64,000 bases of DNA, from positions 40,610,001 through 40,674,000 of the forward strand of contig NC_135896.1 of NCBI RefSeq assembly GCF_964194155.1, given 5' to 3'. Source of the stretch: Cetorhinus maximus (taxonomy: Eukaryota). Under the pieces are notes generated by a model, which worked only from the letters and a program-made list of their open reading frames with translations, made no database searches and was not told the origin of the DNA. The translations under genes and the position numbers were made by a program. Shown here one piece after another: positions 6,031 through 58,245 of this stretch (position 1 is its first letter; each line of letters begins with the position of its first letter).

Positions 6031-6109
6031 TGTAATGGTGCCAATTCCACATAAACTAACTCTTCTAGGCCGACGTACATCTCTACTAGTCAGTTACCAT
6101 TCTGTAACT

Positions 6110-6481
6110 TCCTCTCTCCTCACCGTCCAAGGGCCCAAACACTCCTTTCAAGTGAAGCAGCATTTCACTTGCATTTCCCCTAACTTAGTCTACTGCATTC
6201 GTTGCTCCCAATGCGGTCTCCTCTACATTGGAGAGACCAAACGCAAACTGGGCGACCGTTTTGCGGAACACCTGCGGTCTGTCCGCAAGAAAGACCCAAA
6301 CCTCCCTGTCGCTTGCCATTTTAACACTCCACCCTGTTCTCTTGCCAACATGTCTGTCCTTGGCTTGCTGCATTGTTCCAGTGAAGCCCAACGCAAACTG
6401 GAGGAACAGCACCTCATCTTCCGACTAGGCACTTTACAGCCCTCCGGGCTGAATATTGAATTCAACAACTTTAGATCTTAA
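6110..6481 (+). pseudogene. Penelope GIY-YIG endonuclease C-terminal fragment (open frame)
   Basis: FTCISPNLVYCIRCSQCGLLYIGETKRKLGDRFAEH...VACHFN...RKLEEQHLIFRLGTLQPSGLN matches the PLE GIY-YIG signature. Confidence 0.92.
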
Positions 6482-6852
6482 ACTCCCCCTCCCCCCATCC
6501 CCACCCCGTTTCTTTCCCCCCCCCCCCCCGCTTTTTTTTTCCAATAATTTATATAGATTCTTCTTTCCCCACCTATTTCCATTATTTTTAAATCTAAAAC
6601 TAAAACCTTTAGTCTGTCCACCCCACCCCCACTAGAGCTGTACTTTGAATATCCTGTCTTCCATTCTTAATTAGCACTTTTCTCAGACAAAGACCACCAC
6701 CTTCAACACCTCTTTGACCCTTTTGTCTGTGACATCTTTTGATTATCTGCTCATCTCCACAATCATCACACCACACCCTCAATGTGTCTCTTCCCCCACC
6801 CCCCCACCCACCTTAAACCAATTTATATTTCTCCTTTCTCCTAACTATGCTC

Positions 6853-6893
6853 CAGTTCTGCCGAAGGGGCATGAAGGCTCGAAACGTTAACTG
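6853..6893 (+). ncRNA. Minimal type I hammerhead-ribozyme-like motif (variant core)
   Basis: cagtt-CTGCCGA-aggggc atgaag gctc-GAAA-cg-TT-aactg. Stem I cagtt/aactg pairs perfectly and stem III is the palindrome ACGT. Core position 6 is C rather than A. Confidence 0.6.
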
Positions 6894-7029
6894 ATTTCTT
6901 CTCCACCGATGCTGCCAGACTTGCTGAGTTTTTCCAGGTAATTCTGTTTTTGTTTACCATTCTGTGGGCTGTGCCAGCACCTTTTGCTGTTCATGTAGTT
7001 TCTACTGCACCAGTATTCAAAGAAGAAAG

Positions 7030-11861: not shown

Positions 11862-13180
11862 TTGCCTTCTTCTAAGGCAATCCCTCGGGATCGAGGATGA
11901 CTTGCTCTGGTTTGATGGGTTCTGAGATAGCTGATAAGTCCAATGAGTAATCTGCAGACTCTGCCACATGCAGGGCAGTGGTGCTTAAAGGGTTGGTCAA
12001 ATGAGGAGGTTTGTGCACTCTCTTGGACGCCTTGACATTGCCTCTGCATGTTCCTGACGAAGTCTCTCAATGTGTTCAGTGTCTTCACATTTGAACCTTT
12101 CCATTTTGGTTGGTTACATTCCAGAGGCTCCCATGAGTCAGTGAGGATGTTTGATCTCTTCAGGGAAGCTTTGAGCACATCCGTAACGTGTTTCTGCTGT
12201 CCTCCTGCGAGTCTCCTGTCACAACCGAATTCTAAGTAGAATAATTGCTTCAGTAGGTGTCAGGCATACACATGTCCCGGCCAGCAGAGCTGGCTTTGAG
12301 TGATTATCACCTCAATGTTGGGCATGTTGGCTTAGGAGAGGATGTTACTGTTGGACCGCCTTTCATGCCACTGAATTTGTAGGATCTTGCGAAGGCACCA
12401 CTGATGGTACTTTTCCAGCGCTTTGAGGTGGCTGCTGTAGGTTAGCCAAGCCTTCAAAGCATATGTGATAGCAGGGATCACCGCCAACCGGTAAACCATG
12501 ACCTTAGTCTCGGGTTTGAGATCCTGACCCTCAAACACGCTTTTCCCCAGTTGGCTGAAGGTTGAGCTGACAAATTGGTGAAAATTAATTTCATCATTTT
12601 TTGGCTGCCTTCGTCATGAGGAAGCTCCCAAGATACGGAAAATGGTCCACATTTTCCAGGATCTCGCAGTTGATCTTAATGATAATGGGAGGTGTTACAC
12701 TGTTGGAGCTGGTTGGAAGAGGACCTGAGTTTTCCAGGTGTTTAGTGAAAGGCCCATTTTCACGTATGTGTCAGAGAAGGAGTCGGCAATGACCTGGAGC
12801 TCAGTTTCTGAGTGAGTGCACACACAAGCATCATCTGCAGGCTGAAGCTCAATGACTGACGTTGGGGTGATTTTGGTTTTGGATTGAAGGCTATCCCATC
12901 TGTTCTTTAGATTATCTCAACCCCTGTGGGTAATTTTCTTGTCTCCCTTCTTGAATATAGTCATGATCACAGTGTCCCTAACATCCCTGGCATGCGCCCT
13001 TCTTCAACGAAGAGAGAGTTTCAATTGAGGAGTTCTTAAAAGTGTTCTCTCCAGTGAGCACTGACTACCTCCCTGTCATTGATGAGCTTCCTCCATGCTT
13101 GGCTCTCAGTGGGGTAGGCCCTTCAGTGCTTGGGCCATAGATCGTCTTGACAGCGTTGAAGCATGTCATTGGTATCCATG
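11862..13180 (-). mobile_element. RTE-clade LINE, truncated and degraded
   Basis: Minus-strand pieces FEGQDLKPETKVMVYRLAVIPAITYA..WLTYS.HLKALEKYHQ.CLRKIL.IQW, LKASLKR..I..DSWE, and a C-terminal C2H2-like CPACGRVC..IGLISYLRTH. Short (gaa)-type tail. Confidence 0.85.
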
Positions 13181-13665
13181 AGTTGTTGCATCTCCAGTAA
13201 AACCATGCAAATAGAACTTCGATGAAGTAATAACCACTCAGATCATTGTAAAGGTAAATAATTCACACAGCCAATTGCTGGGAGGCAAACTACAGTTGAA
13301 TACTTTGTGTTGCCTTTATCACAGAAATACAGTGGTTCAATGATTTTTATATTAATTAGCCTGAGAAAGTATGTAATAAAGTTAGATTAGGCTAAAACAA
13401 TTGCACCATGGGTTTGAATAATGGCAGGGTGATTCAAGAGGGAAAAGAAACACGCAGGAAATGAGCATGTTGATTGAGACCTGCATAAGAATGCCTCATT
13501 GTTAGCAGCCACATGGAAAAACAGTAATACTGTTAGCAGGTATTTTAAAATAAATTTTAAGACAAGTTCCATGCAAGAAGCTAATGTACTGACTGCGCTG
13601 AACTGGGAAGAGTTTTAGCCTTGCAATCACTTTCCAAATTCTTTGCACTTTAATGAATAAATATA

Positions 13666-13789
13666 CAGTGGGATTTTCCACACCCACCACCAGGATCTCT
13701 GGTCCTGCCGCAAGTCAATGGACTTCTGGCTGGGGCACCGCCTTACCCGAGGCGGGTCCCACCCGTGACAGGACCGGAAAATCCCGGCC
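13666..13789. mobile_element. Short Harbinger-type MITE
   Basis: gggattttcc / ggaaaatccc TIRs with an ATA TSD. Core aagtcaatggactt is shared with 62590-62722. Confidence 0.75.
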
Positions 13790-14039
13790 ATAGAAAAACT
13801 TGTGATATGTGACATGATAACTAATCACCATCATTAAATCATGAACTATGTCAGATGTTGTTGCATCTCTGTTGTAATTGTTAACATTGCGTACACACGC
13901 TGCAAGTTAAGTGATACTAAACTTGGAGTGTAAATTAGGTGCGAATGCCTGAACTGACAGTGAAGTGATGTGGAGTGAGACTCCCATTGACACTATTTCA
14001 GCATTCAGAGAGTGGTTTGGTAGTACAGAATTTGGATAT

Positions 14040-14675
14040 TGCTGAAAAGAGAAACATGTTGCCAAAGCTTTTAGTCTTGCACTCATCAGGCCAAACTTCA
14101 AACAATCACAACAATTTATACTACAGGAGAAAAGGGTGCTGATGGCTGGTAAGCCAAATCTGATTGACTGAGGCATTGCCATGAGAAATCAAAGGGGGAC
14201 TATAAGGTCCCAAAGCTCCTGGTTAATTTAAAAAAGGTGCAAGGTTTGAATATATTCCTTTTGTTTGCAGAGAACGGGTCCCTCATGTGAATATATGTTG
14301 CTTCTAGCAAGTGTAAATGAGCTATGTTATGAGATTGACTGATTATCTTAAATTGGTTGTTACTGTAGCTATTGGTGCACTCAGAATTGTTCAGACTGCA
14401 CTTGCTTGCTAGAAGTGACACGCATTCATAGACAGGGACATTTTCTTAATAAACAAAAGCTTGTGGCTTTTTGAATTACCTGGGAGCTCAGGGAGCCTAT
14501 AGTTCACACTGCCTTCTCCATGGCAATGCTTTGGCCAATCAGGTTCAGCTTGTCAACCAATCAACACTTTTTTCTCCTGTAGTATAAATTGTGATTGTTT
14601 GAAATTTGGTATTCTTGTGTTTATCCTGGTGAATGCAAGATGAAAAGCTTCAGCAACATGTCACTCTTTTCAGCA
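14040..14675. mobile_element. Fold-back element with ~200-bp inverted arms, each carrying a hammerhead-like motif (probably Penelope-related)
   Basis: 14040-14235 is the reverse complement of 14465-14675. Minus arm: CTGATGAgtgcaagacTAAAagcttt. Plus arm: CTGGTGAatgcaagatGAAAagcttc. Confidence 0.75.
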
Positions 14676-16194
14676 TTGTATTTCAGTATCAGTGTAAAGG
14701 GAAATAGCTTCACTTCTGATATTACAGTTGTGGTATAAATTCACCCTTAGTATCACATGGGGAAAACTATATAACAAAAAGGTAGCCCATGAGCGATTTT
14801 GGAAATGCAACAAAAGAACACAGAATGCTTATAAACATTGTTTTTTGTATGATGCTGCATAATACATTAAAAGGATAAAGAACAGTTTTCATTCACAAGT
14901 AATTTGCTCTTAAAGTAGGGTGAGGGTAAATCAAAGGTCTTATCAAAACTGCCCATTAATGGATTGTTTAGGCTGGAGAGATTTAAGTCAAGAAAGATGG
15001 GCCTGGTACTTAAGTAAACAAGGTGCAAGATCAAAGAATTCCACAAAGTGGCTACACACTCATTAAAAGAGCACTTGCAGAGTAGCTGTTCTTTACAGAA
15101 ACTGAAGGTCACAAAGGAAGGAGGCTGGGGTTATATACTTCCATCCTGCTGGTATAATTAAGGGTGAGAGGTAACTGAAAATAACCAGCTACGTATGACC
15201 TTCTAATGAATTTCTAGGATTGATTATAAAGGAGGAAATGACGGAAGTCTGATAATGATTAAAGCTGATTCTAAAATAAAAGCCGAGAGTAACTTACATT
15301 TTCTTAATTTTGCGCCAACAAAACTGGTATTATAGAAAAAGAAAATATTTCTTACTGAATATTTAAGCCGGAAGGCTACCAACTATTGCCTTCATACTCC
15401 CAAATGCGATTTACTTGTAAAAAATGACCCGAGGCAAAACTGTTTCACTCGCAGTATCAGCTTGAGTTTCATTGATGTGTATCAAGTGAACCAAGGCGAG
15501 CTTTATAACAGCCCACCTATTCTTAATTTCAGCAGAGTTAATAGAACATTTAGGGAACCAAAGAGGTGGCATTATAAAATATGCTGGAGGCAGTTTATGC
15601 CTCTTAAAATATTCAGGGAAAGGTGCTGCTTTCGTCTAGGCTTGATTGCAAAGAGAATGCTAAAGCTTTATGTTTAGCAACCCCCATAAAACTTCCCTAA
15701 ACCCATCTACTAAATCCCAGTAATTGAAACAAGCTGGTGTATAATGAAGCAAAATGCCAGGAAATGGATGGATTTTAAACCCCTACATTTATGCTTAAGG
15801 CCATAGTATTACAACACCTCTGGGACAGGGGCTGTGAATTTAAATGAATCAATAAAGGTGAAACTGAGTTACCCCAGTGTCACCAACAGAAGGACAGCTC
15901 CACAAGTGGTCCCCTCTTAAAGAGGTACCATTAAAATAATTTAGACATAATGTCTAATTAACAATAAAGATACTCACGGGTCTAAATTGTAATAGCTTGT
16001 GTCTCGATTAGACTCTCTGGGATTATTTTCCCTGCTGCCATGCTGATATTTTAGGTGCTAAAGGACATACAAGGTGACCAGGGTGGGTTCTTGAGCTGAA
16101 ACACCAGGTTAGCCTGCCTCTCAGTGGTATAAAATTCTACATAAAAGTCAAATCAGAATAAAAGTACACCCTACTCCATCAACCCTACAAAGTC

Positions 16195-41789: not shown

Positions 41790-44700
41790 CTGGTGTCCCC
41801 CCCCCCAAAGAATCTATCCTTGGCCCCCTTTATTTCTCACCTGCATGTCGCCTCTTGGCAGCATAATCTAAAAACAGTGTCTGTTTCTATATATGCGTTG
41901 ACAACACCCAGTTCTACCTCACCTCTCTTGAACCCTTCACTATCTACTTATAATACTGTTAGCTCTGGATGAGCAGAAACATCCTCCAACCAATTATTGG
42001 GGAAAGTGAAGCCATTGGGCAGAATCGTCCCAGGATTGCACTAAATAAGGCATGAGAAACAATGTATTCCCCGCCGGCCACAATGGCGGGTTTTCACGCC
42101 GTATTGTCCGCTTCCCGCGTATCCTGCTTCATTAATAATGGATACACGGGAGACATGCTGGATCGCTGGTGGGCGGTCATGGCTTTGCCAGCCACAATGT
42201 GACCTCAGTGTTCTCTCATTCCGGGCGCCATGTGTAAAGCGCACCAGAGCGCAGCCTCCTTCACGTCTACAGACCAGGACTGCTCCAGCTGACAGATGGT
42301 CCCAAAAGCAAAGGTGACAGCAGCCCTCAAATTTAGTGATGCCTCTCTGGGCTGCCTGCTGGATGCTCATACGTTCCACCAGGGTAAGTCAACCACCACC
42401 TCACTCTCAACACACTCTCCCAAACCCATCACACATCCACAGGGATGTCACACCTCGGTGGCTAACACCCATGTGAGGATCCTGCACCAGATAACCCCTC
42501 TCTCAATGAAACTATGAGTGCTCCCTCTCCTGTTTTTGACCCTGCTGCCATGCATTAATTATCTCTAAATTGGTTCACAGGGAGCTCTGCCAAGCGACCG
42601 ATGCCCTCAGCCAGCCAGTCTCTCAGCTCCATCCAGGTCCTCATCTCCAGCCAAGATGACACTTCCTCCATTGAAGAACTGGAAATAAGCAGCCTGGAAG
42701 ACTCATCACAGCACTTATCACATCCTCCAGCACAGAGACACACACCTCGGTGGGACCTAGATCTAGAGCAGGCTCGGGTTCACAACCTGGTGGTCACCGC
42801 ATAGACACATGTCCGCAGCAGGAGGAGGCAGGTTCAGTCGAGCTCCCTGGCACTTGGAGGACTGCTGGGGAAGAGGCATCGGTGAGGTCCGAGTCAGATG
42901 ATGAGCCTCTGGATTCGACTTTCCAACTCATTGTGGAGAGTTAGCAGAAGGTGGGGGAACATCACGCAGAGCTGTTGGAAGCCTTTAACAGAGTGGCACA
43001 TGAGTCGGAGGAGTACATCCGCCCGCTCTCTGATGAAGTGATGCCCACATGCGTGCATATGGACGTGTCCATGGGAAGGATGGCGGACTCCATGGAGACC
43101 CTGGTCCAGCAGAACGCGGAGATGTGTGCAGACCTGCACTCCATCGCGGTAGCCATTGGTGAGCTCCTGTGGTGGCAATGTGAGAGGGATACGGGGCACC
43201 TCGATGTCCCTCCAGGTGCTCCTTCCCCTCAAGGAGTCAGGCCCTCATGCGCTTGAAGGGAGGAGGAGCAGAAGCTGGACACCTTTGGGTCATCCACTCA
43301 GGACTCTCAGAGGCTGTCCATTCCCTTCGATTCCCTTTTGCCTGTGACCCCCTTAACCTCTTCCTCTGTCAGCGCAGAGGGAGTGGCTGGCCCACAGGAG
43401 GATAGCCAAAACAAGCTGTGGCCCCCAAGTCTTTGGGTCTCCAGAGGGTGCTTGCATAAGTCATCAGAGGCAACAAGGCCAACCATTACACAGGCTGTCT
43501 CCACCCCTGTTGCGGATGTCAGGGCAGCACCTAGAAGGAGTGGTAGGCATAGAAAAATTAAGAAATTCTGATCACAAGTGGTTGCACAAGTGGGTGAACA
43601 CATTTTGTCACTTTATAATCTGAAAATATATTCACTCTCACTGAATAATGTGCAATGGCTTCATGAGTGTCCCCCCTGCATCCCCCCACCACTAGCAGTT
43701 CAACTTCACGCAGCCAGACCACGAGTGATTCTGGAGGGAGAAGTGTGTGTCGCAGCGCCTTTCAGAGCCTCGTGCAAGCACTCTCCCACTGCCAGCGGAG
43801 CCTTCATCCATCACACTCATCTCACTGTCCTGAGTATTTTCAATGCTGCCTGCTGGGGTTCTCTTTCAGTTGTCTAACTGAGCTGACCTGCATCTCCGCC
43901 CACCCACTGATCACACTCCCATGCAGCACCTGTGCCCATCCAACAAGGGGCTCCTCTCACTTTCAATTTCGGAAAGGTGGTAGTGATCAAATTCCTCATG
44001 AGCTCCCCCAACATTTCCTTTCCCCCAGTCACCCATGTCCTTTCCCCATAACCGTAGGTTATGTCATAACCGGCATAACCTTCAACATCTCCACCGTAAC
44101 CTTCCAGCCTGAACCCTTGTCTTTCCAGAATGTCCAGGTGAACGTGTACGTTCCCTACCTTCCTGGAAATCCCACTTCCATCCGCTTGACCTCCTCCTTC
44201 CCAACCCCATGCCTGTGTTTACCTCCATGTTCCCACCAACCAACCTCGCTGCCCCTTCTACCGACACCGTCGCACCCTCACCCTCCCAACCTACCGGCCC
44301 CCTCTGCCCCTGTTATTCTAACCATCCCTCCCACCACGCCCACCCTCTGTATGCTCCCCAGGAGGCAGACCCCTCCCTTGCACGTTCACCTGGACATTCC
44401 ACTCCCTCAACGCCTTCCTCCCCCATTACTCCTTCCTCCACCCTCACCCTCTCCTCCACCCAGACAACTTCCCCACTCTGGATTCCCTCCTTCCCCTGGA
44501 AACCTTCCTCCCTCCGAACTCTCTCCTATCCCCATACTCTCTCCAGCCCCCATACACCGTCCTTCCCCCTCCCTACCTCACCCCCGACACCTTCAACCCC
44601 AACAACCTCACCCCCTTGACACCTTCGCCACCACCCCCCCACCTCACCCCCTTGACACCTTCACCACTCCCCCCAACCTCACCCCCTGACATCTTCACTC

Positions 44701-46205
44701 ACCCCACCTCCCTAAAACATTCACACCCACACCCCCCCCCCCACCATTTCCAACCTCACACCAGACCCTCCCACCCCAGTACACCATCCTCTCCCACTCA
44801 CACCTAGACCTTCCTCTCCTCCACTCCTTTGCCACTCATCCGTACCAGCCCATTGCAAAGTCTGTGAAGTTCTGAAGCAGGCCTGAAGCATCAACAGAGA
44901 CCATGGAAGATGGTGTGAGCCCATAGTGAAGTTTGTGAAGTTCCGAAGCCTTAGCGGAGTTGAAACTGCTGCGTGGGGACCTCCCATCTTCCAAGAGATG
45001 CTTTGCGGCGGAGCCATGTGCATGAGGAACCACCCACCATGTTCCTTCAGGGTCCGGTAGCTGTAGGCCTCCAGCATCTTCTCCTCAGATGTCCGCGATC
45101 TGAGCAAGGCCTAAAGGTAAGTCCCGACTTCTGCACGTCACACTTGCACAGACGTGTTCTGGGCTGGCGTATTGGCAAATTGGGCATCGGGCAGGCGATT
45201 CCAGTCGGGCCTTACTTTGCATCCCATTGCGGGGCCTCCAGCGACCTGCCATGGCGGACACCATCGGATGATCCCGCTATGATTTCACGCCAGTGTGAAA
45301 CCGATTTATGCACCCCCCCCGCCAAATTCTAACCCCCCCCTCCACCCCCTCCCCCCTGCCTGTATTGATGCCCAACACAAAGGGGAGAGGACAATTCTGC
45401 CCATTGGCTTCAGTCCCCACATCAGCCTCTGTTTCCCAGCTACTGACTCCATCCCTTTCGCTGGCAAATGTCTGAGGCTGACCAGACTGCTCGCAACCTT
45501 GGCAAGACAATCTTCCAACCCCACATCTGAACCACGTAAGACCATTTCTTTCCACTTCCATAAAAAGAGACTTTTTCTCTACCTCAGCTTATCTGCTGCT
45601 GAAACTCTCATTCATGCCTTTGTTATCTCTGGTATTGATTATTCCAACATGAGCCTGGCTAGTCTCCATGTTCTACGCTCTATAAACTTGAGGTGATCCA
45701 AAACTCTGCTGTCCATACTCTAACTCATGTTAAGTCCCATTCATCCAAAATCTTTATGCTTGCTGACCCACATTGGCTCCCAGTTAAGCAACACCTCTAT
45801 TTTAAAATTCTCTAACTTGTTTTCAAATCCCTTCATATTTTTGTTTCTCCTTATCTCTGTAATTTGCTCCATCTCTGCTACCCTCTCAGATATCTGCACT
45901 CTTCCAATTCTGGTCTCTTGAGCATCCCCAATTTTAATTGCTCCACCATTGGTGGCTATGCCTTCAACGGCCAAGGCTGTAAGCTCTGGAATTCCCTCCC
46001 TCAATCTCTCTGACTCTCTACTTTTATTTTGTCCTTTAAGATGCCCCTTAAACCACATCTCTTTGACCAGGCTTTTGGTCTTGTGCCCAAATATCTCGTC
46101 CTTGGGCATCTCAGTGTCAAATTTTGCTTGATAACATTCCCATGAAGCACCTTGGGATGTTTTACTACATTAACTGCACTATATAAATGCGGGTTGTTGT
46201 TGTAG
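41790..46205 (+). mobile_element. L2-like LINE 3' fragment interrupted by a Harbinger element
   Basis: YALTTPSST (YADDTQLY remnant in a shifted frame), LSLSAAETLIHAFVISGIDYSN, and a (ttg)n tail near 46195. The sequence is continuous once 42017-45402 is removed. Confidence 0.8.
42017..45402 (+). mobile_element. Harbinger derivative with Myb gene remnants and a C-rich tract, no recognisable transposase
   Basis: TIRs gggcagaat / aattctgccc with a perfect ATT TSD. Exon 1 remnant MVPKAKVTAALKFSDASLGCLLDA..|gtaagt. Exon 3 at 42581-43571 ends AAPRRSGRHRKIKKF*. Confidence 0.9.
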
Positions 46206-46699
46206 TTGTAGTTAATATAGTGTGCAGCATGAGCAGCCAAGTTGCCTATTGGTAGAATGAATGGATGAATTATTAATCCCTTGAAGGAAGAGAAAAACTG
46301 AAAGAAAAAGCTTGTATTTATATAATCCTTTTCATATCCTCAGGATATCCAAAAGAAGGATAAAGAAGGAAGAAATGGTATGAGAGCCCATTGGTAAATT
46401 CTTTGAGGTATGTCAATGGCTTTAGATCCAGTTTTCAGCCCCTCCCTCTTCCTGCTGACTTCATTTGCTTGGATTTGAAGAGATTCATAAAATGTTGACC
46501 ATTTCCTGTGATCTGCCAGAGCTATTGGCTACTGCTTCCCAAAATAAGACTATAGGAACATGGAGCATCCAACTGAGAATTGGGAAGTGTATCATGGTGC
46601 CAACAGTGAGTCAATCAGGGAGAGCAGAAATATGTTTGAAGAAATAATGAAAGGTGCGATATCCCTGAATTTGGGGTACCTTGTGGTAGTGTTAGAGTG

Positions 46700-47030
46700 A
46701 GCAAAGGGCCCTGTATAAGGAAGCAATCCATGTAAGTTATTTGAATGGAAAGAGTGTATGTACTTTGCCAACTTCTGTAAGGTGTTGAATCCTCTCCAAC
46801 CTGGGAGTATGACCTCTTTATTGTAGAAACAGCATGCTTGACCAATCCTTGGGATAGCCCTTACTGCAGCTTGGTGAGAAGAGTAGTCCTCATGACTAAA
46901 AAATGGCCTCCTTGCTATCACCTTTCCCAGCATGACCTCCTGTGTATCATCAGAATAGTCTTCCCTGCTCCCTGGAACTGGCAGGCTCCTGGCAAAAGGA
47001 CCACTTTCAAGAACAGCAAGTGCAAGTACC
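46700..47030 (-). mobile_element. Possible ancient Myb/SANT exon-1 remnant of a Harbinger
   Basis: YSDDTQEVMLGKVIARRPFFS...IGQA...RGFNTLQKLAK weakly parallels FSD..LEVLL..V..RR..LF..AW..IA..RFNDL. Confidence 0.3.
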
Positions 47031-47905
47031 ATTGTAGGGAGTTACCCTTGCCAAGGAAATTGAAATGTTGTGATTGACACCTGGAAAATTCTCTCTGCAG
47101 AACATACTCCTTACTTTCACATCAAGTGCAACTTTTATAATCCTGCTCTTTTCACTTGTGCAGTATCCTTGAAGATATTCCTCTCTGTTAATACAGTGTT
47201 TTTGACATTTATCTTCCACAACTGCTAGTGCATATATGTTCAGTGCTATTACTTTACATTCATATTCAGGCCTTATTTTCCGCTCTTGGTGAAAGTATAC
47301 AGCTTTTCTGTCCCTCTGTCCACGTCTTCTTTAAAGTTACATGCCAGTCAGCAGTTCCATGTGTATGATGCCATGACAATGTCATTTTCCCAAGCTAGTT
47401 TTATTTTATAATGCTAATACCTCTGTTATAAGTTTTCAAACAGGAAGTGAAAAAGTTATGCTGCCTCTTGTGCAGGCCTTCATTGTTTAAAGACATTTAC
47501 AAGCAATCATTTGCTTTTTCCCAACCCAAAGGGTATATTGGTCATACTTGTAATGAATTGTACAATAGACATTATTCTAGAAGATGGATTCAAGGTTGCC
47601 TGTATCTATAACAAGGTGAGTAAGCATCAGGGGGAGTGAACAAAAGTGACATCTGGAAAGAACAGTTTTAATATCTGCATCCTAATTGCTGTTTCTTGGA
47701 TATTACTGTTGATAAAAATTCTGATGCTGAGAAAAATCCTACGGTTGACAGAAATCATAGAGGGTGGCAGGTAGCTCAGCATTTCTACCCAGGAGAAATA
47801 GGGTCCTTAGCCAAATACTTCACTTCTGATACAATGCTTCTGATTTCCACACTGATCCATACTTGTGAATAGAAAAAAAAATAATTACAATCCAATCTTC
47901 TGTAG

Positions 47906-48847
47906 GGACTGGATTTTTGGGGAGTCAGGGAGAACCTGTTGACTTTTAAAAATGGCTGCTGGAACCTGATTCTTTTCAATGAGTCCTGGTTCATGGCCCC
48001 CAAGAGGTGTTGTGAACCATAGTGTGGATGAGGGAACCTTTTGAAAGGTAGGTTCAAAAGGTCTTACCCATACCTCCCATGCCAACCTATGCCCCTCCAC
48101 CCACCCCCAATGGCCACTCATAATGAGGCTTGACTAGGAGCCCAGACATCCATTATTCCGTTGAAAGAACTGCACCCAAGGGAAAACCTTGCTTGATTGA
48201 CAGCCTTATCTCTTAGATCTATTTCTCAATTGCTTAATGTTTATTTAAACAAGATGCAGAGGTGTCAAGTGCTTGCAATTTCTGCTATTGATGATTTAAA
48301 GAGCTGGTTGATTGGCACTTTTATAAGGCTGTAGTAAAAAAGGTTTTTTGCAAGAAAGCCATGAATGAATAACTGGCTTTTTAAAGCTTTTTCACACATG
48401 ACATTGTTAATTTAGGTCTCATTGGTTCAGTCCAGAGTGTATACTGGGTAAATGGGCATTGAAGTGCCATAGAGCATTGGCATTGGGGGTGAGTGGGGGG
48501 CATGCTGTGGCATGAGTTTACATGTAGGGGGCATGATGAGTGTGTGGGGGGAGTAAGGGGTGTGAGGCGTGAGGGCTAGAAGGCTCTTTTTTATTGTTTT
48601 TATTGCAACTGGGATGACGTCTCAGAGCACAGAGGTGGGCCTCTTATTCAGCCCACCTTGGCACCAGCCAGCCCCTGTGGCTGCCTCCACACTGTTTCTG
48701 GGGATGGTGGGCCTAACTTCAGTTAGCACCATCCCCCCCACCAGAACAAAAATCTTGCTTTTGCAGACGTTTTCTCTTGAGGCGGGCACACCCAGCTGGG
48801 AAATTTCCTGACTCCAGCTCCCTGCCTCGAGGATGAAAATCCAGCCA
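47906..48847. mobile_element. Old Harbinger-type MITE
   Basis: ggactggatttt / aaaatccagcca ends with a TAG TSD. The right half resembles 57730-58245. Confidence 0.6.
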
Positions 48848-50945
48848 TAGAAGTCAAACCAATCTACTTGCCTAAGATCGAGTTATTGAATAAATGGCTT
48901 ACTTTGGGAGGTGATTGCCTCTGACATGTGACTACACCCAGATGGAAAGGTCACTTGCTTGAAGTACTGATACACTTTTTTTGCAACAAAGTGCATTTTC
49001 TATTTGCTCAGCAAAGTAGCATCCTGTTTCAATTCTCTCAAATGCAAAGTTCAGGTACACATAAGACAGGAAATGGTGGTTTGGTCCATTTTACTCTCAA
49101 TATGTGACCTTACAGTAGTTCTGTATCTTTTATGACTGGACATTAAGCTCAGTCAGTTACTTTGACTTGAACTGGCACAATTATATGTTATCTATCATTC
49201 AGTGGCAAACAAAGCTTTTAACATTTAACAGTCACTACAGTTGATGTTGTGGATCAATAGAATCAATCTATTAGCACCAGGAATTATGGTCACTGTCAGC
49301 GAGGCCAACATGTTGATGGTGATAAAGGGACAATGTTATGATCGTGGGCACTATTTTACAACACCAGCTTGTGAATAACACCCTGGAGAGCTACAGAACA
49401 GTCTCTAACATAGTCACCACTGCTTAGGACACCTGCTTTCCTTTTTGTTACTCTGCAAAAACTTTACCACTGGTAAATTTTGGAGAGCAAAACATGCGCT
49501 AGAGCAATATATAATACAGAAATTAGCAGATGAATTCTAATTTCATTTCAATTGCATTCCAGTGACAAAAAAAATGCAATGTTCCCAGTTTAAGGCATGA
49601 TTTTTTACTAAATGAATCACTGGAAACTTTGAGGATATTTGGTGCGGAAGATTCAAATGACCAAAGGTCAGGCCAGGGAGACCATAGTAAAGGAACTGAC
49701 CTCAGGAGTCTCAAGTGGCTGCAGGATGATAGTTATTGAAATCCAAGATGAAAATGCTGTTAAAGCTGCTAATTACATCCAGATGTAATGGATCAGTCAA
49801 TTACACTGTACATTTTGTGAAGGATGCTGGTTAAAAGAGCTCTGTACGTGTGTTGAGTTAGATGCGCTCATAGTGCTGTTCTGCCCTGGCTTTGGAGCAC
49901 TGGGTCACTTGCGGTTTAACTGCACGCTCCAGCCTCACACCATTCTAACAAGAAGCAGTTGTTTTCCACCGCCATTGCCAATATAGTCACAACATGAAAC
50001 TGCAGTGACCATTTTAAATCACAACCAACAAGACGTTAAGGGCACCTTGCTCACTATTATCTGATATCCCTCAGGTGTTATGGAAAGGAAAAAGTGATTG
50101 AGATTGTTGTTCACCCTTGCTGTCCATTTCTGGGAATAAGTCAGGCATTGGCACTTCTACAGTGTGTAAAACAAGGTGAAGAAATGTCAAAATGGCCTCA
50201 TCATTGTTCTTTTTCCTGGTCATGTACTAATATAACAACAACAACAACAACCTGTATTTATATAATGCCTTACAATGTAATAAAACATCACAAGACACTT
50301 CTGTTATGGATAGGAGGAGGGTTTAATTTAAACAGCCCTGATTTCTCCTCTCACCACCTGTCTGTAAACAGAAGGGTGTTTTTGATTTTGACCTCCTCCT
50401 TTATAAACAGTGGTGTATTTCCCAACCTCTCAGTTTTTGGTGTGATCCAATTTCTAATAATAGCTCCACAGCAAACTTGTGATAGGATGAATTCAGAGGG
50501 TTAGTTTATTTTGAACACTCTCAAATGTGGGAGGAGGGTAGAAATGTGGCCTCCTTTTCATTCACACAATTAAAGGGGTGGTTGTGGGGGTTGGGGTGGG
50601 TGGAATAGAGAAAGAAAGGTTTATAGGGAAAAGACCACAGAGTAAAGAATTATTGTTTCACATGAGTCCAGAGTCCAGAATCAAAGTCCAATGGTGCAGT
50701 CCCTCACAGAGGCTGGCAGGTTGAAAACTGATGCTGGATAATTTACTTATCTAGTAGAGGTGACTTTGACAATGAGATAGGAATGCAATAATAAATTAAT
50801 CTTGTAGGCGATGGTATAGAAGTTCAGCAGTCCCAGTAGAAACAGTATAGATGGGACCAGACATTCACCTGGACCGAGCTGTTGTTCTGTGCTGCTGCTT
50901 GCTAGGTGGAAGATGGTAGACTGATTGGCAGTACAGCAAGACAAT

Positions 50946-53900
50946 GGGTGAAATCATCCATACCCACTAGTGTTGGGCGTGTTTGGTGGCATGAGCGAAC
51001 AATATGGCGAGAAGGTCAAAAATTGGTTTCACGGTGTCGTGAAACCAGTTTGTGATTGTCCGCTCAGCCTGATGATAGCGGGCCGCGTACCCCACCATCG
51101 GACCATGGGAACATCATTGTAATACATCAGCATATCATTATAGGGCCAGCCCGCCAGACTCATTCCCCATCTCCCGCTGGATTGTCCGCCCACGCTGACG
51201 GGAAAACATGCCAGTGCAGAACACATCTTGACAATTGTGACATGCAGAAGTCGGGACTTACCTCACATGGCGGACATCTGAGGAACAGAAGTTGCTGGGG
51301 CCTGATACCAACGACACCCTGGAGGAACGTCCATGTTGGGTGGATTCTCATGGACATGGATCTTTTGCGAAGCAGCTCATGGATGTTGGATACTCACAAG
51401 GGATGATGGTCAAGGGGGTGGGAGAGGAAGGTCTAGGATCGACTGGGAGAGGAAGAGGTATCAGTGGGGGGTGAGGTTGGCAGGGGAGAATGAAGGTGTT
51501 GCGGGAATGAAGTTGGAAGGGGTGGAATGAAGGTTTTGGGATGTTGAGGTTGGGGGAAAATGAAGGTGTCGGGGGTGAGTTTGGGAGGGAGGAATGAGGG
51601 TATTGGGGGTGAGGTTGGGGGGAAACAAAGTTGTCGGGGATGAGGTTGGGAGGGGGAAGAAGTATGGGGGGAGGAGGGGGTGATGGGATAAAAGATGGCA
51701 ACTGGGGAGGTAGCTGTAAAGGGGGTGGACGGTGGAAGGGAAGGAGTTCAGAGGAGGAACGAGTGTGGAGAGGGAAAGGAGTCCAGGGGGAGGAAGGAGT
51801 GCGGAGAGGGGAGGAAGTCCAGGAGGAGGAAGGAGTGCAGAGAGGGGAGAGGGTCTGGGAGGAGGAAGGATTGTGGAGAGGGGAGGGAGTCCTGTAGGAG
51901 GAAGGAATGTGGAGAGGGGAGGGAGTAAGTGTTGAGGAAGAAGTAAGGGTGGAGGAATGTGTTGGGAAGGGGGAAGGAGTAAAGCTGGAGGAAGAAGAGA
52001 TGATGTCTGAGGGAGTCAGGAAGGGGGAAGGAGTAAGGCAAGAGGAAGAAGTAAGACTGGTGGAAGAGGTAAGGCTGGAAGAAGGAGTCATGAGGGAGAA
52101 AGGACTAAGGGTGGCGGAAGAAGCAAGGGTGTCTGAGGGAGTTAGGAAGAAGGGGGACTAAGCGGGAGGGGAGTCTGAGGGGGTGGAAGGACTAAAGGGG
52201 GGAAGGGGTTCCGGGGGGGAAGGGTTCCAGGGGGAGGAAGAGGTTCCGGGGGGGAGGGGTCTAGAGTGGGGGACTTAGATCTAGGTAAACATGCAAGGGA
52301 GGGGTCTGATGGGTCCATGACTGCCTCCTGGGAAGCAAACTGAGGAACGATGGAACGGTGAGAATGACTGAGGGCAGAGTGAGGCAGTACGGTAGGGTGA
52401 GGGTTCGACGGTAGCAGTACAAGGGAAGGCGAGGGTAGTTGGTGGGGACTCAGAGGCAGACACAGGCCCTGGGGGTGGGAAGTAGAAGGTCAAGGAGGTG
52501 AATGTGGATGGGGGTGGGATTTTCGTGAAGGAAGGAATATGCGCGTTCACCTGGACATCTCTGAAGGAAAAGCTGTTTGGTAGGCCACAGGTGGAAGGTG
52601 ATGCCTGAGGGGGTCAACTGTGATGGGGGAAAGGAAATGGGTGACTGGAGGAGGGGAAAAGACGGGGGAACTGATGAAAAACTGAATCCAGACCATGCTG
52701 TCCAAATCGAAAGTGAAACAACAGTCGTGGTGGGCGGAATCAGGTGCTGCATGGGAGTGGGATTATTGGGTGGGCAGAGATATGACCAACTCAGATGGAC
52801 AACTGAAAGGGAACCCCAGCCGGCAGCATTCAAAATACTCAGGACACTGAGGTGAGTGTGATATGTGAAGGATCCGTGTGTGTGGGAGAGTGCTTGCACG
52901 AGGCTCCAAAAGGCCCTGCCACACACACACACTTCTCCCTCAAGAATCACTCATTGGTCAGCTGCTCCATCTGCAGTGACAGAGGATGAGGTTGAGGGGC
53001 TCACGGGCAAAGGGAACTCGGAGGGAGAGGACAGACTCTGAGATTCCTGAGTGAATGACCCAGGGGTTTCCTGATGCTCGTCCTCCTCCCTTTGGGTGCC
53101 TGGGGGCCCTGGCCTGACTCCTTGAGGGGAAGGAGCACCTGGAGGGATGTCAAGATGCCCTCTTTCCCTCTCAAGTGGCCACTACAGGAACTCACCCATG
53201 TCTCCTATGATGGAGTCCGGGTCTGAACATATCTCTGCATTCTGCTGGAGCAGGGTCTCCATGGCGTCTGCCATCCTCCCCATGGAGACCTCCATACACA
53301 CACATGTGGGCACTACTTCATCAGAGAGCAGGTGGACGCACTCCTCCGACTCACGTGTCACTCTGTTGAGGGATTCCAACAGCTCTGTGTGATGCTCCCA
53401 CACCCTCTGCTGATTCTCCAGGATGAGTTAGAAGGCCAAATCCAGAAGGCCGTCTTCTGACTCGGACCTCACCGATACCTCTTCCCCAGCAGCCCTCTGA
53501 GTGCCGGGGAGCTCGGCTGAACCTGCCTCCTCCTGCTGTGGACATGTGTCCGTGCGGTGACCACCAGATTGTGAACCTGAGCCTGTTCTAAATCTAGTTC
53601 CCACTGAGGTCTATATCTCTGCACTGTGCAGGGTGTGGGTAAGCGCTGTGACAGGTCTTCCAGGCTGCATATTTCCATCTCCAATGGAGGATGTGTCCTC
53701 TTGACTGGAGGTGGAGACATGGATGGAGTTGAGGGCCTGGCTGGCTGAGGGTGTCAGTCGCTTGGCAGAGCTCCCTGTGAACCAACGTAGAGATAATTAG
53801 TGCATGGCAGCAGAGTCAAAAGCAGGAGAGAGAGCACTCACAGTTGTGTTGAGGGAGGGATGAAGGGGTGCAGGATCCTCACGAGTGTGTTCGCCACCGA

Positions 53901-54773
53901 CCTCACTGTCACCACTGGCACAGTCCATGTCCTCATCAGTCAGCGCAATATCACACTCCTCAAAATAAGTGAGGGGCCTAATGTGGGCCATTCCACCCCC
54001 GGTCTGGGACCGCTTTCTGTTGATGTGAACAGGCTTTTCCTGCATGAAAACAGTTGGAGACAGTGTGAGCAGGACACATTGCGCTGTGTGAAATGTTTGT
54101 GTGATGAGCGGAGACATGGACAGGATGAGGATGCAGCTCGAGAGGATATGAGCCTGATGGAGATGTGAGGGTGTGTGTGAGAGTTAGTGGTGTTGTTCCT
54201 TGAGGTGTGAGATCCCTATGGATGTGTGATGGGTTTGTGAGTGTGTGAGCTGAGAGTGATGAGGATAGTGAATGGATGAGACCATTCATCCTTTTTCGGC
54301 ACTGGGTGGCTGTCCTTTTTTGCAGGGCATTGGCACTGACCACTGCTGCCACCACTTCCCATGCTGGATTGGTGATGCCACTGCCCCTCCTGCAGCCAGA
54401 GAGCGGGTAGAGAACATCACGATGGGCCTCCATGGCATCCAACAGGCGCTTGAGGGACATGTCACTAAACCTGCGGTCTGCAGCCTTTTTGCCTTTCGGG
54501 GCCATCATGTCTTCCCTGCAGCAGTCATTGGCTGGAAGCACTGAGAGGTGTGCACGGGGCTAGACTTTAAATATTGTGCACGACGAGATGATGAAGCGGG
54601 GAGGTGAATGAGAGCCTGCCTGCCATGGAAACAGTGTGTTTCCCGGGAATGCGTAATTAATGTGGTGGGTTTGGGTCGCTATGGTGTTAAAAGCCACCAT
54701 TGCGGCCAGCCGGTATAGTGTTGTTTTAACTGCCCGCTACCGCACTTGGTACAAATCTGGGGCGATGCCGCCC
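50946..54773 (-). mobile_element. Harbinger derivative with three Myb exon remnants, no recognisable transposase
   Basis: Ends gggtgaaatc / gatgccgccc with aat/agt flanks. Exon 1 MAPKGKKAADRRFSDMSLKRLLDAMEAHRDVLYP..AWEVVAAVVSANALQKRTATQCRKRMN from 54505; exon 2 at 54039-53883 (EKPVHINRKRSQTGGG); exon 3 from 53774. Homologous to 42017-45402. Confidence 0.9.
51761..51940 (+). repeat. 36-bp purine-rich minisatellite (5 copies) within a ~1-kb G-rich tract
   Basis: Units such as gagtgcggagaggggaggaagtccaggaggaggaag. Confidence 0.85.
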
Positions 54774-56439
54774 AGTGTAACTGGTTCTCCCAGATATGAG
54801 GTCACATGACCCCCCACCTCTCCACTTTGGCTTTGACAAAGGATGTATATTTCTTGTCAGGATTCTTGAGGTTGTTAATGTTTCATCCATTAAGAATTTG
54901 AAAGTTTGCAGGGTGCTTTGTCCTAGCAGACTAGTAGTCTCCATTGGCTGGACCTGGCTTAGGAAATGTAGATGGCCTTTGAATTTGATCTGTGCAGCCA
55001 CAGGGGTTGTTAACCTCTTTTCAAAGGTAATGAGGTGCAAGGCGCCACGACACTGTCGAATAGCTCTTATTCTTCGAAAGTCACAGCCAGACATGGCTTC
55101 AGTCAGTTTAAAGTTTTCGTCCAGTTTTTAAAATTTTATGAAGTAGCCATGTTGATATATTTATATAAAAAATAAAAATGTAGTGAGAGGTCTTAGCTCC
55201 AGTACACTTCACAGGAGCATTATGAAACAAAGTATGACATCATGCCATAAAAGGACACATTAGGTCAGATGAGCTTGTTTGAAGCGGTAGATTTTAAGGA
55301 GATTCTTGAAGTAGGAAAGTGAGGTAGAGAGGCGGGGAGGTGTAGGGAGGACATTCTAGACTTTGGGGTCCAGGCAACTGAAGGCGTGTCCACCAATAGT
55401 GGAGCAATTAAAATCACAGGATGCACAAGAGGCCAAACTTAGAGGAACGCAGATATCTCTGAGGTTGGAGTTTTGGGTGACCTCAAGTTTACAGAGGGTA
55501 GAATGTTGGAGACCATGCTGAAATGTGTTGGAATAGTAATGTCTAGATTTAACAAAGGCATGAATGAGGTTTTTGGCAGCAGATAAGCTGAGAAAGGGCA
55601 AAGACAGGCAATGTTACGGAGGTGGAAATAGGGGTCTTAGTGATGGCATAAATATGTGGTCAGAAACTCATCTCAGGGTTGAAATTAATATCAAGGTTGC
55701 AGACAGTATAGCTTAATCTCAGACAGTTGCCAGGGAATGGAATGGAGTTGGTAGTTAGGGAACGGAGTTTGGAGTGGGGACCGAAAACAATGGCCTCAGT
55801 CTTCCCAACATTTAATTGGAGGAAGTTTCTGCTGATGTTGAATAAGCTGCCTGAGAATATGGTAACAGTGGAAGAATCGAGAGAGGTAATGGTGAGGTAG
55901 AGCTGGATGTCATCTAACTGCTTATATAAACTGGTTAGGATGGAGATGAAGGAATGATAAGTAATGTAGAAACCCTGAGTGGGGGCGTCCTGCTTCTCCC
56001 TTTATTGCTTCCTCATCTATATAATCTCCCATGATATGGAGGGTCTGCTCCTTGAATGTGGTCAGTCAATGCAAGGTAGCTGGACTTCCTCAGGTTATCT
56101 GTCCCTCTTGCTGTGTACAGCTAGAAGCATGTATTGATTCCTTGGTATGAATTTCTGGAAACTCATTGTACTTACTGTAGGCATTGCAAATGCAGAAACA
56201 CACAGCATACATGAGCTGGTGATGGAAAAGGTTAGCAGAAGGGTGTTCTGTACAACCTCCTAATGAAAGAGGTAGTGCTAGAAAGTGCAAAGTGCAACAT
56301 AATATGCACCCATGGTAATGTAAAGGTAAAGTGAAGGAATGAAAGTGAGGGAGCAATTTAGCAATTTATGATAGTACTTGTCAGTCTGGTGCATAAATAT
56401 GAGATTTCATTATAACCCTCTATCTTGCCTCCTGGAAAG

Positions 56440-56770
56440 TTTTTGATTTTCTCAAAACATTAAGGCCACATCCTCTACACAATGCTGATGGAATTTGCCA
56501 ACTCCTGCCACTCTCATTGCTGCATCAGCTGGTTCACATAACATCCCTGCTTTCAGATGGAGGCCTGCAGCAGGATTCCCGTCGTTGCTTCATCAAAGTA
56601 AAGTGCCCTGCAGCTCCTCAGAGTGCTACCAGATGTGTTGTTGGGTGGCAGATCATTTCTGCATCCTACCAAACTGCCATTTTCCCTTTCAAACCTGCAG
56701 AAGTATATGTATCTTCTCCCATTGGATGTGTTGTACAATCCTGGAGGTATGGCCTGCCTGATGGTTGACC
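56440..56770 (+). mobile_element. Possible ancient Harbinger transposase remnant
   Basis: Weak motif order resembling AGFP..F.N.K..HSL.V.MVC....IIS.....FP. Confidence 0.25.
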
Positions 56771-57534
56771 ATAACAGGTTAATGACATATGGGTGGTATC
56801 AGGACCATTTAACTTGGAAGGTTGGTGGTGTTGGGAGGGGAGAAATTGGCTCCAGTGTGTTACAAAACAAATTTTAGATTATTAAATATAAATTAAAATG
56901 TTGGAAATTAACAATTGTTATGATTGCCGTAGAGGCTGATAACTTTTAGAAATATATTTGAATTTCCAGTGACTGACTGGGAGGATCACGGGACAAGATT
57001 TCAAGTTTTAAGACTTTTACCACAATTAACAAACTAAAAGCAACATTGACTATTTCAGTAGGCAACTTAAAAGTCTGTTCTAGCAGTTTCAAAAGCTGCT
57101 TGTTCACATTACCTCAAGGGTTATCATTATATCATTATTAATACTTGGCTGCTTTCCACAATTTATCATTATCTCAGTAGGGATCCTAAGTTCACAGTTT
57201 GACTGACAGCTTGAAGAGGTTATTAAAAGATTATCTGTCTTTGATGTGGAGTTATAAATAAAAGTCTGTATGCTATTATAAGGGATTAAGTACTTATGGG
57301 AATTTAAATGTTTTGAATGGGCTTTCACAAATGGGAGTGATTTTGTTATAATAAAGCCTGTAATAGATATTTAGACATAAATTAACAATAAATATTTATT
57401 TCATAGATCGAGACAGATTCTGAGTCAGCCATGTGATGAATGGAAATTAGAGCCTCTACCATTACTATTCATTGCACTCATCTACAATATGCATGAAAAA
57501 GTGCATGTTGCAACAGCAACTCAGGCTGTTTGGG

Positions 57535-58245
57535 GAGGCCAGTTGGCTCAGTTGGCTGGAGGGCCGGTGTGGATCAGATTGGTGCTAAAAGCACAAGATT
57601 CAATTCCCATTCTGGCTAGGGTGGATTCTGGGCATGCCTCCTCACTCTATCCATGGTGGAGATTGTGGTACAGTGGGTTGAACCTGCCTTTGGGCAGAGA
57701 ACTGAAGGGGTTTTATTTCATCTGAGGTCTGTCCATGATGGATACTAGGTGAGTTCGCATGGAGTGTGTAAGGAAAAAAGGTAATGAAAGGGTTGGCATG
57801 AGTTGGCACAGAGGCTGTAAGAAGACATGGGGTGGGTGGCATGAGTTGGCATTAAGTTGGCATGGGGGCTATAAGAGGCTATTGGGGATGGTTAGGAAGC
57901 ATGTGTTAGTGTGAATGGGATATGGGAAGTGGGGGGGGGGGGGGCGGTGTGGTTGAGTGGGTGTGAGGGATGAGGCTAAAGGGCTGAATATTTAACAAAA
58001 CAACTGGGTCAAAGTTCCAGAGAGCTGAGGTGGGCCTTTCAAATAGCCCACCTTGGCATTTGGCAGCCCCTATGACTGTCTCCGACTTGAGTCTGGGGGC
58101 AGTAGGCCCGACTCCATCCCGCACCCCTTCCCCGCTGCTGTACTGAAGATCCAGCCATTCAGGGGAGTTTCTTCCGAGGTGGGTGCAGTGAACTAGGAGA
58201 TTTCCCGACTCCGTCTGTCCATGTTGGGAGTGTAAGTCTGGACCT
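57535..58245 (+). mobile_element. tRNA-like SINE head (57535-57725) followed by a MITE fragment
   Basis: A/B-box-like ttggctcagttgg..gattcaattccc. The 3' part is similar to 48440-48847. Confidence 0.45.

What the first reader, a model, noticed from the sequence alone, without database searches (positions are those of the whole stretch)
14040..14675. Fold-back element with a hammerhead-like ribozyme motif on both strands
Seen: a 636-bp non-coding unit with ~200-bp inverted arms. Each arm carries a hammerhead-like motif near its outer end. The two motifs are mutated at different core positions (TAAA for GAAA in one, CTGGTGA for CTGATGA in the other), so their consensus is a canonical minimal hammerhead: CTGATGA-RT gcaag AY-GAAA-AGCT-TC, with palindromic stem III AAGCTT. 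Known: Penelope-like elements carry minimal hammerheads with palindromic stem III that can act as dimers, and their terminal repeats can be inverted. Inference: a non-autonomous, retrozyme-like family whose transcript of either polarity folds into a long hairpin with a self-cleavage motif near its 3' end. It differs from the Penelope family at 6106-6953.
Basis: partly seen in the sequence, partly recalled or inferred. Interest (0 to 1): 0.7.

Follow-up and report, generated by a model that had tools for sequence, protein, structure and literature searches.

The report
Head-to-head Penelope retrotransposon stumps
This mirror-image repeat is two broken-off end pieces of a common protein-coding jumping gene (a Penelope-like retrotransposon), joined head-to-head and likely inserted in one event, each with a worn copy of the small hammerhead ribozyme motif these elements normally carry; it is an ordinary, already described insertion shape, not a new ribozyme family.

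Summary
The palindrome and both hammerhead-like motifs are real, but the unit is neither non-coding nor a fixed family. Arms are 355 and 272 bp with a 9-bp junction, no spacer. Their inner parts encode the C-terminus of a Penelope-type GIY-YIG endonuclease; other copies run on into the reverse transcriptase; the outer end encodes the first residues of the same ORF. The left arm has the 30-bp Penelope 'tail', the right does not, and a 13/15 target-site-duplication candidate flanks the pair. In 102 loci, neighbouring copies were head-to-head 32 times and tail-to-tail once, at sizes from 138 to 3935 bp. This is the published inverted-pLTR insertion form of endonuclease-bearing Penelope-like elements; opposite-strand minimal hammerheads 100-700 bp apart were reported in 2014. 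The family motif is a sound minimal type I hammerhead (stem I covaries between subfamilies), but both copies here have a core mutation and lie on opposite strands, so they cannot dimerise in one transcript. The scan has noted this form many times on other DNA (785 notes match the words). Clade likely Penelope/Poseidon; distinct from the element at 6106-6953. Low interest.

The parts
13994..14008 (+). Left copy of the target-site-duplication candidate (13 of 15 columns match the right copy, one gap)
   Evidence: score 10, reached by 3.9% of 380 cross-locus control pairs without any position constraint; abuts the tail as in cleaner relatives L061, L062
14010..14039 (-). Penelope 'tail', about 30 bp, on this arm only; continues the ORF N-terminus
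   Evidence: (tail score 15 left, 5 right)
14010..14057 (-). First 16 codons of the element ORF (reads ..FSAISKFCTTK.., matching ..FRAILKFCTTK.. at the start of RT+GIY-YIG protein P0007)
14040..14394 (-). Left arm: 5'-truncated PLE copy (endonuclease C-terminus, 3' UTR, hammerhead, terminus); 15-bp deletion just 5' of the hammerhead
   Evidence: (86% to family consensus)
14059..14094 (-). Minimal type I hammerhead motif, G12 changed to T; predicted cut between 14064 and 14063
   Evidence: sequence
14228..14394 (-). Last codons of the GIY-YIG endonuclease domain with stop; one frameshift
   Evidence: 43% identity over 40 aa to P0002, E 2e-12 for the single comparison
14395..14403 (.). 9-bp head-to-head junction; no spacer
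14404..14675 (+). Right arm: second copy, truncated 82 bp further 3', with a 14-bp deletion, no tail
   Evidence: (79% to consensus)
14621..14656 (+). Minimal hammerhead motif, A6 changed to G, stem I pairs 1 and 3 broken; predicted cut after 14651
   Evidence: sequence
14679..14692 (+). Right copy of the target-site-duplication candidate

Best explanation
The unit is two 5'-truncated 3' ends of an endonuclease-bearing Penelope-like retrotransposon (likely Penelope/Poseidon clade) joined head-to-head, likely made in one insertion event and now decayed. Shown: the arms carry endonuclease codons, 3' UTR, hammerhead and the first ORF codons; other copies extend into RT; the inverted partner is common and variable in length. 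Inferred mechanism: the element's endonuclease nicks both strands about 15 bp apart; each nick primes reverse transcription just inside the ORF start of a more-than-unit RNA, one at the tail end and one about 30 nt short of it; both cDNAs stop early and are joined at their truncated ends; gap filling gives the TSD. The hammerhead is the normal pLTR motif, carried along twice; in the parent it would cleave as a dimer or with protein help, and in this copy it is likely dead.
For: ORF content; homologues are 579-891 aa proteins with precomputed RVT_1 (15 of 15), RVT_1 above cut-off in 3 of 4 scanned and GIY-YIG below cut-off in 3 of 4. Same-subfamily copies reach the RT domain (L110, L114, L117). 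Long elements with hammerhead-terminus, ORF start, RT, endonuclease and the same 3' end: L088, L089, L093, L094, L096, L098, L103 among 18 fetched. Staggered 5' ends. Orientation of 43 neighbour pairs in 102 loci: 32 head-to-head, 10 direct, 1 tail-to-tail. Tail on one arm in 14 of 20 pairs, neither in 6, both in 0. Clean TSDs in relatives (14 bp L061, 12 bp L062). Literature: inverted 5'-truncated copy and one-sided tail typical of PLEs (PMC8557442; PMC3846280); opposite-strand min-HHR pairs 100-700 bp apart (PMC4209133); purified anole Poseidon protein cuts and extends both strands and has two RT start sites that bound the tail (PMC11167929).
Against: No intact or full-length copy of this exact subfamily was found: the long elements are 71-79% identical to its consensus. 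Pfam does not call GIY-YIG on the family's own fragments. The window's TSD is imperfect and 8 of 20 pairs score 7 or less, within the control range. The arms are no more alike than random family copies (78.3% against 80.6 +/- 3.9%; 3 shared derived changes against 5.0), so a common RNA template is not shown. In vitro the anole protein showed no difference in start site between strands, which does not predict the one-sided tail. Clade rests on a missing linker motif, not on a tree.
Confidence: 0.93

Rival explanations
1. Same element and single event, but the inverted arm arises by self-priming or fold-back on an antisense RNA or on the first cDNA, not by priming from the second target strand.
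For: Proposed in PMC3846280. Some junctions hold short locally copied or inverted sequence (L013, L033, L055).
Against: The two arms usually start at different positions, by tens to hundreds of bases, and often end differently (tail on one only), which a simple fold-back copy would not give. This only competes with the inferred step, not with the identity of the element.
Confidence: 0.3
2. A non-autonomous, retrozyme-like family that moves as a fixed two-arm hairpin unit.
For: L002 is a similar 659-bp fold-back with one arm starting within 1 bp of the same point; non-autonomous PLE derivatives are described in vertebrates (bioRxiv 10.64898/2026.07.22.740005).
Against: L002 has a different second breakpoint and junction; pair sizes run from 138 to 3935 bp; arms contain ORF; retrozymes as described are direct tandems or monomers; the motifs are on opposite strands.
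Confidence: 0.03
3. Two independent insertions that landed head-to-head by chance or by targeting of the first copy.
For: The family is abundant (8091 first-look candidates); arms are no more alike than random copies.
Against: 32 to 1 orientation bias, 9-bp junction, one TSD candidate around the pair, never two tails in 20 pairs.
Confidence: 0.03
4. The hairpin at this locus has been kept for a host function (structured RNA or dsRNA source).
For: Very stable predicted fold; the left junction is also present in contigs of a second organism about 4-5% diverged (X3 record 13).
Against: Arm-to-arm identity equals that of unrelated copies, so no homogenisation or selection for pairing is visible; both cores are mutated.
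Confidence: 0.03

Closest known systems
Inverted-pLTR insertions of endonuclease-bearing Penelope-like elements (PMC8557442, PMC3846280)
   Same: 5' truncation, inverted truncated copy directly 5', head-to-head orientation, 30-40 bp tail at one end, pLTR covering the first ORF codons, TSD
   Different: Nothing structural; both arms here are short, so the palindrome fills the whole insertion
Penelope/Poseidon clade, e.g. anole PAc (PMC11167929)
   Same: Single RT + C-terminal GIY-YIG ORF of about 840 aa in homologues, no CX2-5CxxC linker, hammerhead at the ORF start, tail inside the ORF
   Different: Predicted cut site lies a few bases before the likely start codon (26 bp after it in PAc); genomic ends lie roughly 25-50 nt into the ORF (111-118 in PAc); not shown to be the same family
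Minimal PLE hammerheads (Cervera and de la Pena 2014, PMC4209133)
   Same: Type I topology, short stem I (5 bp), G10.1-C11.1, palindromic stem III/loop 3, opposite-strand pairs 100-700 bp apart
   Different: Stem II is only 2 bp with a 5-nt loop and has no extra base between 9 and 10.1 (7-8 bp with a bulge in the Schistosoma motifs)
Non-LTR retrozymes (bioRxiv 10.64898/2026.07.22.740005)
   Same: Short PLE-related sequence with a type I hammerhead
   Different: Not a direct tandem, no fixed monomer, contains ORF sequence with staggered 5' ends

Membership tests
EN+ Penelope-like element | Single ORF with RT and C-terminal GIY-YIG endonuclease | tested here: met
   Arm aligns to the C-terminus of RT+GIY-YIG proteins; same-subfamily copies reach RT; long sister copies cover the whole ORF. 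GIY-YIG Pfam scores are below cut-off.
EN+ Penelope-like element | pLTR that includes the first ORF codons, at both ends of long copies | tested here: met
EN+ Penelope-like element | Optional 30-40 bp tail at one end | tested here: met
   one arm in 14 of 20 pairs, neither 6, both 0
EN+ Penelope-like element | 5' truncation and inverted 5'-truncated partner | tested here: met
EN+ Penelope-like element | Hammerhead motif in the pLTR | tested here: met
Penelope/Poseidon clade | No CX2-5CxxC linker between RT and endonuclease (present in Neptune, Nematis) | tested here: met
   absent in the alignment and the family translation; definition
Penelope/Poseidon clade | RT phylogeny groups with named Poseidon/Penelope elements | not tested
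   no named reference sequences were on hand; no tree built
Minimal type I hammerhead | CUGANGA, GAAA and UH core | tested here: met
   family: 35, 34 and 52 of 57 copies, all three in 20; loss mostly CpG decay at C11.1/G12 (CG 9, TG 27, CA 12 of 57). Not met in either arm of this locus.
Minimal type I hammerhead | Stem I with covariation | tested here: met
   pair 5 in 111 motifs: T-A 66, G-T 16, C-G 10, A-T 5, T-G 4; pairs 2-5 paired in 400 of 444 cells against 27-57% when slid. Counts are copies of a few subfamilies, not independent events.
Minimal type I hammerhead | Match to an Rfam hammerhead model | tested here: not met
   none at E<=10 in window 13000-16000 or in 8 loci
Minimal type I hammerhead | Self-cleavage as dimer or with protein | not testable with these tools
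   needs an in vitro assay
Non-LTR retrozyme | Fixed non-coding monomer, often in direct tandems | tested here: not met
   ORF content, staggered ends, inverted arrangement
Non-LTR retrozyme | Circular RNA with junction at the cleavage site | not testable with these tools
   no raw-read RNA run was offered

The most novel reading that the evidence does not exclude
Head-to-head Penelope insertions record priming from both cut strands, with the two primings using different reverse-transcription start sites: among 24 pairs of true outer ends, 18 have one tail, 6 none and 0 two. That would explain the long-known inverted pLTR and one-sided tail by an ordered two-nick mechanism that the in vitro study did not resolve.
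Probability: 0.55. Interest if true: 0.4.

Novelty: new member of a known kind. Interest (0 to 1): 0.15.

Why it matters
Little as a single locus: it is a decayed repeat of a published form. As a family, thousands of copies with a one-sided tail, TSDs and subfamily covariation in a very small hammerhead (2-bp stem II) give material for the open questions of how Penelope elements integrate and what their ribozyme does.

Tried and rejected
Rfam scans: no hammerhead. Pfam on family fragments: no GIY-YIG or RT call. First protein search with a 139-aa fragment: none among 60 candidates. Test for arms sharing a template or being homogenised: no excess in this locus or overall in 18 pairs, one outlier L002 with 11 shared changes against 5.3. 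Sequencing runs: no RNA holder listed; laying four contig sets gave repeat-wide pile-ups and cannot show ends, strand or circles. Look-up of earlier findings by sequence: nothing. Paper searches: 'Penelope1_Vert' (a recalled name) 0 papers; Penelope+Poseidon+'shark genome' 0; Penelope+hammerhead+shark 4, none on this family by listing; Penelope+'twin priming'+inverted 2, off topic by listing. Rejected: a 355-bp monomeric SINE (the common end at query 355 is only where the window's arm stops); a cis dimer between the arms (opposite strands; the hairpin pairs each motif with its antisense copy). Host gene context was not examined. No supplements were read; those of PMC4209133 (motif alignments) and of the retrozyme preprint may hold this family.

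Full report
Observation. The fold-back is real. Aligned to its own reverse complement it pairs almost to the centre: left arm 14040-14394 (element sense on the minus strand), right arm 14404-14675, junction 9 bp. There is no spacer, and the unit matches nothing at 6106-6953.

Family. A DNA search of the 3.99-Gb own genome gave 8091 first-look candidates, of which 40 were scored; only the window and L002 span the whole 636 bp. The copies continue 5' beyond the arm with staggered ends. A script-built consensus of 51 copies reads as RT thumb, endonuclease, stop, 3' UTR, hammerhead, terminus and tail. A sister-subfamily fragment retrieved 15 proteins among 823 candidates, all with precomputed RVT_1; four were rescanned: RVT_1 in 4 (3 above cut-off), GIY-YIG in 3 below cut-off. 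The window's arm aligns to their C-terminus. The outer end of the left arm translates to the N-terminus of the same proteins. A search with that N-terminus gave 150 scored matches; of 18 stretches fetched, 7 hold terminus, ORF across RT and endonuclease and a second 3' end, all broken by stops or frameshifts. They are 71-79% identical to the window's subfamily, so they are sisters; copies of the subfamily itself reach the RT domain in L110, L114 and L117. Mean non-CpG divergence from consensus is 8.9% in 64 copies: an old, inactive burst.

Architecture. Of 58 loci, 14 have an inverted copy within 60 bp of the 5' end, 11 further away, 21 are single, 3 direct tandems, 9 other (flanks were 1.5 kb, and loci were picked by similarity, not at random). 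Of 43 neighbour pairs in 102 loci, 32 are head-to-head, 10 direct, 1 tail-to-tail, spanning 138-3935 bp. In the first 20 pairs the tail is on one arm in 14, neither in 6, both in 0. In all 32 the count is 23, 6 and 3 (chi-square p 0.011); the 3 two-tailed cases, and 5 one-tailed ones, come from L086-L100, stretches fetched for an ORF start, where the partner is mostly an internal 5' pLTR reading into the ORF. Dropping these 8 leaves 18, 6, 0 of 24 (about 3.4 two-tailed expected if independent; my arithmetic). A TSD candidate flanks the window's pair (13994-14008, 14679-14692, 13 of 15; 3.9% of 380 controls score as high); relatives have perfect 12-14 bp TSDs at the same positions, while 8 of 20 pairs score within the control range. 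The arms are not more alike than random copies.

Hammerhead. The family motif has a 5-bp stem I, 2-bp stem II with a 5-nt loop, and a 1-bp stem III with palindromic AAGCUU. All three core boxes survive in 20 of 57 copies; most loss is CpG decay at C11.1/G12. Ten non-CpG core positions are 95.3% conserved against 91.9-92.5% for base-matched background (P 0.005-0.008), which fits invariance among the parent elements. Stem I pair 5 occurs as five pair types in 101 of 111 motifs. In this locus the left copy has lost G12 and the right A6; from established hammerhead chemistry both are likely inactive. They lie on opposite strands, so one transcript holds only one sense motif, and the predicted hairpin pairs it with the antisense arm. 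Cleavage was not tested.

Mechanism. Shown: identity, truncation, orientation bias, one-sided tail. Inferred: nicks on both strands each prime a cDNA from just inside the ORF start; the two truncated cDNAs are joined. Support comes from the anole Poseidon protein, which cuts and extends both strands, starts at two sites that bound the tail, needs protein for hammerhead cleavage and does not need cleavage for insertion (PMC11167929; passages and second half of the main text). The rival is self-priming on antisense RNA (PMC3846280; passages and Discussion). My data do not separate these firmly.

Known. PMC8557442 (passages) gives the inverted 5'-truncated copy and one-sided tail as typical of PLEs. 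PMC4209133 (parts 1-2 of 4 of the text) reports opposite-strand minimal hammerheads 100-700 bp apart and links them to truncated PLEs. The retrozyme preprint (abstract and first part of Results) treats tandem monomers, which this is not. No CX2-5CxxC linker is present, pointing to Penelope/Poseidon; no tree was built. The element at 6106-6953 has a Pfam GIY-YIG hit and is 77% identical to a copy in L063 that has a CX4CxxC linker, so it is likely Neptune-type. I found no paper naming this family. The scan's own notes hold 785 findings with the same words in at least 56 genomes; they are unchecked, and I take the two-strand priming wording partly from them.

Verdict. Real feature, ordinary Penelope insertion, new member of a known kind, interest 0.15.

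Noticed in passing
window 6106-6953: A second 5'-truncated PLE, likely Neptune-type, with its own hammerhead-like motif near 6850-6895 (longer stem II, seen by eye).
   Followed up: partly
L064 2919-3053 and 584-685 (minus strand): Two U11 snRNA matches (111.8 and 61.9 bits), lying near a non-LTR retrotransposon ORF; possibly one gene and one truncated or retroposed copy.
   Followed up: no
L087 4095-4120: Long PLE copy with both termini but an internal deletion of most of the RT domain; possible non-autonomous derivative.
   Followed up: no
window 13632-13839: Another high-copy GC-rich repeat just left of the element (depth pile-up).
   Followed up: no
window 44001-58000: Strong GC-skew switch, -0.45 at 44-46 kb to +0.36 at 50-52 kb; probably simple repeats.
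   Followed up: no
L004, L019 and window 14090-14091: 15-bp deletions just 5' of the hammerhead core recur in several copies at slightly different registers, likely by microhomology.
   Followed up: no
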